Assembly: GCF_009914755.1 (NCBI RefSeq)
Contig: NC_060947.1
Direction: 5' to 3' (one strand)
From: the human T2T-CHM13v2.0 reference genome, Homo sapiens
Length of the DNA stretch: 64,000 nucleotides
Position numbers and translations under genes: made by a program. The notes beneath the pieces are model-generated. The model was given only the letters and a program-made list of their open reading frames with translations. It was not told the origin of the DNA and did not search any database. Below are positions 25,764 to 27,294 of this stretch, piece by piece. The first letter of the stretch is position 1. The number at the start of each line of letters is the position of its first letter.

Positions 25764-26672
25764 AAAGAGATGGCAGAGACAGAGTATGATATATGGTGAG
25801 GATATGGAGGCAAGGTGAGAGCTGTGCTCAGGACATTTTGAGTTTGAGGAGATGTCCAGCAGGCAGATGGAAATACAGGGGAGTGTTCTGGCCTAGGAAG
25901 AGCTGTTAGTCCAGAGATGAGAGTTGTGACAGTCAAGGCCACGGGAATGGAGAGGAATGCTAAGAGAAACAGGCACATTTAGAGGTCACCACATTTCGAG
26001 GTCAAGTGGAGGAGAAGGAAGAGTAGCCAGTGAGATAGAAGAAAACCCAGAAGTTGTTTATTTGAAGCAGATGAGAGGAAAAACTGTTTCAAGGAGGAAG
26101 AAGCTGTTTACGTGTCTAATGCTACTGCTGAGCCTTCAGATGAAGACAGTAGAATGACTGTTGCATTGGCTACAGGGAAGCCATTAGTGTCCTTGACAAG
26201 ATCTATTTCAGAAGAGGTAAGGGGGCAAGGAAGCCTGATAGAAACAAGTGGAGAAGGGCATGGGATGTGAAAAAGTGGAGCAGCAACATTTGCAGGTTGT
26301 GGTGCAGTCTGTGGTTGCCGTCCTCCTGCCCTGCTGCAGGTCCTATGTGTATGTATTTTTAAATCAATGTATTAAGTACTATAACAACCACAATTCCTCT
26401 GTAAAGGAATGTTTAGGTTACTAAACACTTTTACAGGTTATCTACTCTACTTACCAGTTTTTACTTACAGTTTTCAACCAATATTGCCTTTCAAAAACAG
26501 GAAAAGATAATCTTCACTTAACCAAGATTAGCGTTTTTCATTTTCCCCCGAAAGTCCAGAATGGGAATGACTTGACATTGAAAAGCCTTACCAACAAATT
26601 AAGGAATGACACGTAGGCAGCACAGTCTTTCAAGGGGCTATTTTCCAAAAATTCATTTAAAAAACAGTTCTT

Positions 26673-27111
26673 GGCTGGGCACGGTGGCTCATGCCTGTAA
26701 TCCCAGCACTTGGCCGAGGCAGGTGGATCACCTGAGGTCAGGAGTTTGAGACCAGCCTAACCAATATGGTGAGGCCCTGTATCTACTAAAAATACAAAAA
26801 TTATTAGCCGGGCGTGGTGGAGTGTGACTGTAGTCCCAGCTACTAGGGAGGCTGAGACAGGAGAATTGCTTGAACCCGGGAGGTGGAGGTTGTAGTGAGC
26901 CCAGATCGCGCCACTGCACTCCATCCTGGGCAATAAGAGTGAAACTCCATCTCAAACAAACAAACAAAAAAAATCAAAGATGACTTAAAAGACTGGAGAG
27001 ACACAAGAGTCTTGGATACGAAGACTCAGCATAGTAATGATGTCAGTCATCCCCAAATGATCTACGGATTTGACATAATTCCTATCAACATCCGAATAAA
27101 TAAAATAAAAT
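26673..27111 (+). mobile_element. AluSq/Sp-like element carrying ~130 bp of the 3' flank of the Alu at 44656, plus a second A-rich tail
   Basis: TSD aaaaa(a/c)cagttctt at 26659-26672 and 27112-27125. 26967-27099 matches 44994-45127. Confidence 0.85.
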
Positions 27112-27294
27112 AAAAACCAGTTCTTGTTCCAAAAGTAATTGAAATACACTTCTTTTTCATCAGGAAAACAGTGTCTAGGTTCCTAAGATGGCCCACAAAT
27201 GCCCATTTTACCTCCCACAATTCTGCTGAGCTGCAGTTCACACTCATTACACTAGCCTACGTGTTGAGGCAATTCCCTCTGGAACTGGGGAATT

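What the first reader, a model, noticed from the sequence alone, without database searches (positions are those of the whole stretch)
26659..27125. Alu with an apparent 3' transduction whose donor lies 18 kb away
Seen: TT|AAAAAAcagttctt TSD, then Alu, A tail, ~130 bp of L1M-derived sequence, a second (AAAT)-rich tail and the matching TSD. The extra sequence matches the 3' flank of the Alu at 44656 (44994-45127, about 9 substitutions and 1 indel) and includes that Alu's own TSD. It stops at AATAA, 2 nt before the donor's first Pol III terminator (TTTTT, 45130-45134). Both Alus share Sq/Sp-type features (accaa, gggcaa[c/t]aagag[c/t]gaaactcc). Direction is clear because the L1M context is continuous only at 44-45 kb. 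Established: Alu Pol III transcripts run to the first T run, but the unique 3' tail is normally lost in retrotransposition, so Alu 3' transductions are considered rare. Inference: either retrotransposition of a full-length, re-tailed Pol III transcript that identifies a source Alu, or DNA-level strand invasion from a resident Alu resolved at AATAA microhomology.
Basis: partly seen in the sequence, partly recalled or inferred. Interest (0 to 1): 0.75.

Follow-up and report, generated by a model that had tools for sequence, protein, structure and literature searches.

The report
Hybrid Alu faking a 3' transduction
This human Alu repeat is a hybrid: its body comes from one Alu subfamily, while its end, tail and 126 extra bases match another Alu 18 kb away, likely copied in by local DNA repair rather than carried on RNA, so it only looks like the rare Alu transduction.

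Summary
The structure is real. One 14-bp TSD (13/14) encloses an Alu, an A tail, 126 bp copied from the 3' flank of the Alu at 44656 (9 substitutions, 1 indel; donor TSD included; no closer match in the genome) and a second (AAAAT)n tail.

The acceptor body carries four linked states (93A, 98T, 163G, 187A) that mark a separate subfamily, AluSx4-like. Genome-wide, 406 Alus have that body with an ordinary end, and only 1, this locus, has the Sp/Sq-type end. The donor is AluSp-like. The element is therefore a chimera that switches to donor sequence near Alu positions 245-264.

Best explanation (0.8): a resident Alu's end invaded the nearby donor, copied about 170-185 bp past its tail and rejoined its own tail at AATAA. 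RNA routes can also make the chimera but do not explain the 18-kb proximity (about 1e-5 by chance). The event is about as old as the Alu. Primate orthologues could not be checked. No function is implied. It matters as a worked false positive for Alu transduction screens.

The parts
26659..26672 (+). 5' target-site duplication of the resident Alu, after TT (L1-endonuclease-type site)
26673..26914 (+). Resident Alu body, positions 1-244, with 93A, 98T, 154G, 163G, 187A, 244C and a 5-A linker; AluSx4-like (name partly recalled)
26915..26935 (+). Switch interval (Alu positions 245-264/265): last resident marker 244C at 26914; first strong donor marker is the extra A at 26936; donor equivalent starts at 44899
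26932..26953 (+). Donor-type (Sp/Sq) Alu 3' end: 262A, inserted A, 272A
26954..26973 (+). First, C-interrupted A tail (the donor tail is also C-interrupted); its last 8 A start the copied donor TSD
26966..26981 (+). Copy of the donor Alu's TSD
26974..27099 (+). 126-bp copy of donor 3' flank (old L1 ORF2 sequence), 93% identical to 45001-45127
27095..27099 (+). AATAA microhomology shared by the donor flank (45123-45127) and the second tail
27095..27111 (+). Second (AAAAT)n tail, inferred to be the remainder of the resident Alu's own tail
   Evidence: origin is inference
27112..27125 (+). 3' target-site duplication (13 of 14 match)
44640..44655 (+). Donor Alu 5' TSD, inside a continuous old L1 fragment
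44656..44937 (+). Donor Alu, AluSp-like (93A, 98C, 154A, 163A, 187G, 244T, 4-A linker, Sq/Sp end); name recalled
44938..45008 (+). Donor (AAC)n-type tail and 3' TSD (44994-45008)
45001..45127 (+). Donor flank that was copied
45130..45134 (+). First run of 4 or more T after the donor Alu start (candidate Pol III terminator)

Best explanation
The element is a hybrid of a resident AluSx4-like body and the 3' end, tail, TSD and 126-bp flank of an AluSp-like Alu 18 kb away, and it likely arose when a broken or stalled DNA end in the resident Alu paired with that neighbour, copied about 170-185 bases and rejoined its own A-rich tail at AATAA. Shown: the chimera, the donor, the direction, the two junctions, and an age close to that of the Alu. 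Inferred: (1) an ordinary Alu insertion made the TSD and an (AAAAT)n tail; (2) a break or stall occurred in its 3' end or tail, soon after insertion or during its second-strand synthesis; (3) the free 3' end invaded the same-orientation donor within positions 245-264; (4) synthesis ran through the donor tail into unique flank; (5) the new strand was released and annealed to the resident tail by 5-nt microhomology. This is one-ended invasion with a microhomology exit (long-tract conversion or replication template switch); these two sub-routes cannot be told apart here.
For: Chimera: 406 Alus carry 93A+98T+163G+187A with an ordinary end; 1 carries them with the Sp/Sq end, and it is this locus. 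The states are linked: among the first 100 of 5741 rows, 13 of 20 with 98T have 163G against 12 of 80 with 98C (tallied by eye), and 6 of those 13 reappear with 187A, against 7 of 93 local Alus. In the donor's family the acceptor states are rare: 98T 5 of 200 rows, 154G 16 of 200, 163G 2 of 200 (by eye), 187A 562 of 12,609, 244C 1,650 of 12,231. Rough likelihood ratio about 900-1,800 for chimera over whole-length copy (assumes independent sites and partly guessed factors). Proximity: a random insertion lands within 18 kb with p about 1.2e-5; even 386 true Alu transductions would give 0.004 such cases. Alu-Alu conversion is reported to favour neighbours within about 10 kb and often to be partial (PMC8230782). 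AATAA is the first >=5-nt match to the second tail after one at 45013, of 7 separate sites in 500 bp, so the stop next to the T run needs no RNA.
Against: The copy ends 2 nt before the first Pol III terminator, as an RNA template would predict (I put this at about 2-fold). 18 kb is beyond the roughly 10-kb range quoted for neighbour conversion. Overall divergence does not show the switch: non-CpG difference is 17 of 196 sites in positions 1-244, 2 of 33 in 245-283 and 9 of 126 in the flank. About 0.14 Sp-like copies genome-wide are expected to reach 98T+163G+187A by independent change, so the count of 1 alone is not the proof; the per-locus ratio is. Reverse transcription completed by recombination with a resident Alu gives the same chimera shape (6 of 226 new inserts, PMC3415434). 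No orthologue was seen, so an Alu-only ancestral allele is not shown.
Confidence: 0.8

Rival explanations
1. RNA-templated chimera. The donor's Pol III transcript, ending at the TTTTT, was primed at AAUAA from a nick in the resident Alu's A-rich tail, reverse-transcribed by L1 ORF2p, and the cDNA finished by recombining with (or switching to) the AluSx4-like sequence at 245-264. To explain the distance the RNA would have to be used in cis near its own gene.
For: Endpoint 2 nt before the first T run. Internal priming and completion by recombination with a genomic Alu (5' genomic, 3' incoming) are seen in culture: 6 of 226 inserts (PMC3415434). The resident TSD would be kept, as seen. Age close to the AluS period.
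Against: Needs a rare flank-carrying cDNA, a hit in an Alu tail, recombination and a landing within 18 kb (about 1e-5). New Alu inserts were reported as apparently random across chromosomes. No other daughter of this donor was found. No AluY transduction was confirmed among 118,489 copies (10.1101/2024.04.29.591526).
Confidence: 0.12
2. One-step 3' transduction of the full-length donor transcript; the acceptor body drifted later by point mutation.
For: One TSD around everything, a TT|AAAA site, two tails, an exact Alu start and an end at the terminator. Both Alus have 93A and the Sq/Sp end.
Against: Requires five separate changes plus a linker change that together rebuild another existing subfamily: joint chance about 1e-7 for the five; 406 versus 1. 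The donor ranks only 11th of 94 local Alus in closeness over positions 1-244. The proximity is unexplained.
Confidence: 0.02
3. A true transduction from the donor, followed by a second event in which an AluSx4-like element overwrote positions 1-244 of the new copy.
For: Explains the chimera and the terminator; partial Alu conversions exist (69 of 98 cases, PMC8230782).
Against: Two rare events plus the 1e-5 proximity. None of 93 other full-length Alus in 320 kb has all four body states, and none shares more than 2 of 16 rare acceptor states; the 200 kb upstream was screened, the downstream side beyond the window was not.
Confidence: 0.03
4. Same DNA-level route but with two local template pieces: after the donor flank the new strand also copied an 18-nt A-rich stretch at 44456-44473, so the second tail is partly templated rather than inherited.
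For: The 18-mer starting at the AATAA junction recurs exactly only at 44456 in the window and in none of the 38 other loci; 4,526 copies genome-wide.
Against: Post hoc. Six places in 320 kb match some 18-nt part of the tail exactly, so a same-strand hit within 1 kb of the donor has about a 2% chance; such tails are unstable over this age. It is a sub-case of the best explanation and its 0.1 is counted within that 0.8.
Confidence: 0.1

Closest known systems
Partial Alu-Alu non-allelic gene conversion giving hybrid Alus (PMC8230782; passages and a supplement search seen)
   Same: Hybrid element with the body of one subfamily and the end of another; one-way copy; donor unchanged; TSD of the resident kept; neighbour as donor.
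   Different: The tract runs past the shared homology, carries the donor tail, TSD and 126 bp of flank, and exits by 5-nt microhomology, so there is a net gain of sequence. The donor is identified by that flank.
Alu/Alu-mediated rearrangements, TEMR; FoSTeS/MMBIR template switching (PMC9675761, PMC4888836; passages seen)
   Same: Chimeric Alu at one junction with a homology window of about 17-20 bp (reported Alu median 16 bp); nearby template; return to the original template by microhomology.
   Different: No deletion, tandem duplication or inversion of the 18 kb between the Alus; the product is a small templated insertion inside an existing TSD.
3' transduction by L1/SVA, and claimed Alu transductions (10.1101/2021.07.12.451456 passages; 10.1101/2024.04.29.591526 whole text; PMC12350158 passages)
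   Same: TSD - element - tail - source flank - tail - TSD layout; end next to a terminator.
   Different: Daughter and source are of different subfamilies over most of the body; the source is 18 kb away; single copy.
Alu insertion completed by recombination with a genomic Alu (PMC3415434; passages seen)
   Same: 5' part from the resident Alu, 3' part from another Alu.
   Different: Those inserts lack direct repeats and come with deletions or rearrangements; here an intact TSD frames the element and the 3' part comes from a local locus with its flank.

Membership tests
Alu 3' transduction (one-step, RNA) | TSD encloses element, flank and terminal A-rich tail at an endonuclease-type site | tested here: met
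Alu 3' transduction (one-step, RNA) | Extra piece maps directly 3' of a source Alu at >=90% identity, same orientation | tested here: met
   93%; best match in the genome
Alu 3' transduction (one-step, RNA) | Piece ends before the source's first run of 4 or more T | tested here: met
   ends at 45127, TTTTT at 45130
Alu 3' transduction (one-step, RNA) | Daughter and source are the same subfamily along the whole Alu (criterion stated in 10.1101/2024.04.29.591526) | tested here: not met
   six linked differences; 406 versus 1
Alu 3' transduction (one-step, RNA) | Ancestral allele is an empty site, never Alu-only | not testable with these tools
   no related genomes held
Partial Alu-Alu gene conversion / one-ended invasion | Hybrid Alu with a subfamily switch supported by at least three diagnostic sites | tested here: met
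   98, 154, 163, 187, 244 and linker on the 5' side; 262, inserted A and 272 on the 3' side
Partial Alu-Alu gene conversion / one-ended invasion | Non-reciprocal: donor keeps its own body, TSD and flanks | tested here: met
   donor TSD intact, L1 context continuous
Partial Alu-Alu gene conversion / one-ended invasion | Homology at the entry, microhomology at the exit | tested here: met
   17-20 bp window with one mismatch; AATAA
Partial Alu-Alu gene conversion / one-ended invasion | Resident element existed before the event (Alu-only orthologue) | not testable with these tools
   no primate genomes available
Partial Alu-Alu gene conversion / one-ended invasion | Template was DNA, not RNA or cDNA | tested here: inconclusive
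   argued from proximity; the sequence alone cannot separate them
AluSx4 subfamily (acceptor body) | Specific states at position 98 and at a right-arm G>A site, and no 265.1 insertion | tested here: inconclusive
   A linked group with 98T, 187A and an ordinary end exists. PMC3672193 names site 98 and G191A as specific to AluSx4 and says it lacks the insertion, but writes 98C and uses its own numbering. No consensus library was available; the name is partly recalled.
Segmental or tandem duplication | Similarity extends 5' of both Alus | tested here: not met
   match starts at the Alu; the empty sites do not align

The most novel reading that the evidence does not exclude
The donor's own Pol III transcript, still near its gene, served as the template that was reverse-transcribed into a nick in a neighbouring Alu's tail: RNA-templated, cis-local repair or retrotransposition that marks an AluSp-like copy as transcribed in the germline and records its true 3' end.
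Probability: 0.08. Interest if true: 0.75.

Novelty: new variant of a known kind. Interest (0 to 1): 0.4.

Why it matters
Whether Alus transduce 3' flanks is unsettled. One T2T preprint lists 386 high-confidence Alu 3' transductions and notes that 231 of 700 events of all classes have a subfamily mismatch with their parent. A later screen confirmed none among 118,489 AluY but left out AluS and any L1-containing piece. This locus has the TSD, source-flank identity and terminator marks of a transduction yet is a two-subfamily chimera with a local donor. It gives a concrete route to false transductions and a simple test for the published lists (donor distance plus a diagnostic-site switch). It is also an Alu conversion whose donor and both junctions can be named. 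No effect on a gene is shown: the site is about 25 kb past the end of SLC9A6 with no annotated exon.

Tried and rejected
Overall identity along the Alu as the discriminator: uninformative (17 of 196 non-CpG sites in 1-244, 2 of 33 in 245-283, 9 of 126 in the flank). Shared CpG decays: each is found in 29-45% of 95 local Alus, so sharing says nothing. 'accaa' (93A) as a sign of descent: rejected, it is in both subfamilies. Old homology or segmental duplication between the two sites: rejected. An independent L1 fragment as the extra piece: rejected, it carries the donor TSD and other copies are 71-85%. A local third Alu as source of the body: none among 93; L039:7082-6796 has 93A, 98T and 163G but not 187A. 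Hairpin at the exit point: none (z +0.60). The L1 piece upstream of the donor (44496-44603) gave no PDB hit; continuity rests. Base-rate screen: of 110 Alu 3' ends in 320 kb, 13 pair rows shared a flank; 1 is this pair, 1 has another Alu as flank, and 11 lie among loci L021-L025 and L031, of which 5 pairs were checked and are long duplications. The window was chosen for this case, so no rate follows. Locus in print: not among the 3 chrX rows of the PMC8230782 supplement (file cut when stored). A search for Alu + transduction + TSD + gene conversion + nearby + chimeric Alu gave 0 papers. Searches listed no title or abstract start describing this structure. The transduction table of the T2T repeat preprint could not be seen, so the locus may be listed there.

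Full report
Observation. The anatomy is as reported. A 14-bp TSD at 26659-26672 and 27112-27125 (13 of 14) follows TT and occurs nowhere else in the window with at most one mismatch. Inside it lie an Alu (26673-26953), a C-interrupted A tail, a 126-bp piece (26974-27099) and an (AAAAT)n tail. The piece aligns to 45001-45127 with 9 substitutions and 1 gap, starts within the TSD of the Alu at 44656 and ends at AATAA, 2 nt before that Alu's first T run (45130-45134). In the whole genome the local site is the best match (92% over 125 of 125 bases); the other 27 of 29 places are 71-83%, and the search from the donor side gave no second daughter among 40 scored of 454 candidates. The piece is L1 ORF2 sequence (residues 805-837). 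The donor's empty site is continuous with other L1-like loci across the Alu; the acceptor's matches none of 18 loci, nor the donor's. Direction is therefore 44-45 kb to 26-27 kb.

Are the two Alus parent and daughter? I aligned 95 full-length Alus from the window, 18 other loci and 200 kb upstream. Overall divergence does not decide it: 17 of 196 non-CpG sites differ in positions 1-244, 2 of 33 in 245-283 and 9 of 126 in the flank, and the donor is only 11th closest of 94 over 1-244. The pattern of differences does decide it. The acceptor has 98T, 154G, 163G, 187A, 244C and a 5-A linker; the donor has 98C, 154A, 163A, 187G, 244T and a 4-A linker. Both have 93A and the Sq/Sp-type end (262A, one inserted A, 272A).

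Genome-wide pattern counts place each state. Alus with 93A and the Sq/Sp end number 10,581 with 244T and 1,650 with 244C. In their first 200 listed rows, tallied by eye, 5 have 98T, 16 have 154G and 2 have 163G; 187A is found in 562 of 12,609 with the donor's core and end. The donor is a typical member of this AluSp-like group (name recalled). Among Alus with 93A and an ordinary end (5,741), 13 of the 20 listed rows with 98T have 163G, against 12 of 80 with 98C, and 6 of the 13 also carry 187A, against 7 of 93 local Alus. So a separate subfamily exists. It has 406 members with all four states and an ordinary end out of 101,678 Alus that fit a looser scaffold, and exactly one with the Sq/Sp end, the acceptor itself. 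PMC3672193 (passages) describes AluSx4 as lacking that insertion and having specific states at 98 and at a right-arm G>A site; it writes 98C, so the name is likely, not proven. A rough calculation gives 1e-7 for the five states under whole-length copying and 1-2e-4 under a resident element switched in 245-264, a ratio near 1,000. It assumes independent sites and uses guessed factors for two sites and for the switch position. About 0.14 Sp-like copies are expected to reach three of the states by chance somewhere in the genome, so the single hit is not proof by itself. The acceptor is a chimera. The switch lies after 244 (26914) and before the inserted A (26936). Position 244 is the weakest marker; if it is a back-mutation the switch could lie anywhere after 187.

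Age. The acceptor body has 7 private non-CpG changes in 197 sites. If the copy is as old as the Alu, 9.0 differences are expected in the flank and 9 are seen; at half the age 4.5 (p 0.04), at a quarter 2.2 (p 0.0005). The event happened at or fairly soon after insertion.

Mechanism. An exact Alu start, TSD and TT|AAAA site show an ordinary retrotransposition for the body. The donor part needs a second template. DNA route: a free 3' end in the resident Alu's end or tail pairs with the same-orientation donor, copies about 170-185 bases through tail, TSD and flank, and returns to the resident tail at AATAA. Template switching to a nearby site with return by microhomology is described for FoSTeS/MMBIR (PMC4888836, passages). 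Alu rearrangement junctions have a median 16 bp of microhomology (PMC9675761, passages). Alu conversions are often partial (69 of 98) and were reported to act mostly within about 10 kb (PMC8230782, passages). Coupled invasion and end-joining in reporter cells is recalled, not read. RNA route: the donor transcript is primed at AAUAA from a nick in the resident tail and finished by recombination with the resident body; 6 of 226 new Alu inserts in culture were such chimeras, and internal priming occurs (PMC3415434, passages). Both routes give the same sequence. Distance separates them: a random landing within 18 kb has p 1.2e-5, and 386 true events would give 0.004 cases. The terminator match favours RNA only weakly, because AATAA is the first 5-nt match to the tail beyond one at 45013, of 7 sites in 500 bp. 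I give 0.8 to the DNA route, 0.12 to RNA-templated chimeras, 0.03 to transduction plus later conversion and 0.02 to one-step transduction.

A loose end. The first 18 nt of the second tail recur exactly at 44456-44473, 200 bp upstream of the donor, and nowhere else in the window or 38 other loci; the genome holds 4,526 copies. Six places in 320 kb match some 18-nt part of the tail, so chance is about 2% and the test is post hoc. A second local template jump is possible, not shown.

What is known. 10.1101/2024.04.29.591526 (whole main text; supplements not seen) confirmed no transduction among 118,489 AluY, required the same subfamily, excluded pieces containing L1 and did not examine AluS, so this locus was outside its scope. 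10.1101/2021.07.12.451456 (passages; supplements closed, journal version not held) lists 386 Alu 3' events and 231 of 700 with subfamily mismatch; this locus may be in its table. PMC12350158 (passages) reports polymorphic transductions for L1 and SVA. The locus is not among the 3 chrX rows of the PMC8230782 supplement (file cut when stored). PMC6598467 was seen as a search listing only, and PMC12593883 only through a term search with no hits. Searches showed no description of a hybrid Alu that carries a neighbour's flank inside its TSD; most subscription papers are not covered.

Verdict. It works like a long-tract Alu-Alu conversion with a microhomology exit and is not a member of the one-step transduction class, whose same-subfamily criterion was tested and failed. 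It is a variant of a known process with modest interest (0.4): no function is shown, but it is a clean mimic with both junctions and the donor in view, and it gives a direct test for the disputed Alu transduction lists. Orthologues and a genome census could not be run here.

Noticed in passing
window 44456-44473: An A-rich 18-mer in the tail of the Alu just upstream of the donor is identical to the start of the acceptor's second tail; about 2% by chance, post hoc.
   Followed up: partly
window 44128-44484: An Alu (about 44182-44444) sits behind a short stretch that looks like a MADE1 mariner remnant (name recalled) inside the old L1; the Alu's last ~25 bases and the other half of that stretch appear to be missing.
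   Followed up: no
window 44938-44993: The donor tail is an (AAC)n microsatellite of about 14 units, while its copy at 26954 is a short (AAAC)n tail; one of them changed greatly after the copy.
   Followed up: no
L021-L025 and L031 (G000:C23:134154001-134264000): Several Alus with their flanks are 96-100% identical over 1-1.7 kb, a segmental duplication cluster; the finding's gene table puts CT45A11P in this neighbourhood.
   Followed up: partly
L039:6796-7082 (minus strand): An Alu about 40 kb upstream has 93A, 98T and 163G but 187G and an ordinary end; perhaps the same subfamily as the acceptor body, but not among the 8 Alus listed as sharing most of its rare states.
   Followed up: partly
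window 53316-53913 (minus strand): Two Alus lie head to tail with only a short A-rich spacer, a tandem insertion.
   Followed up: no
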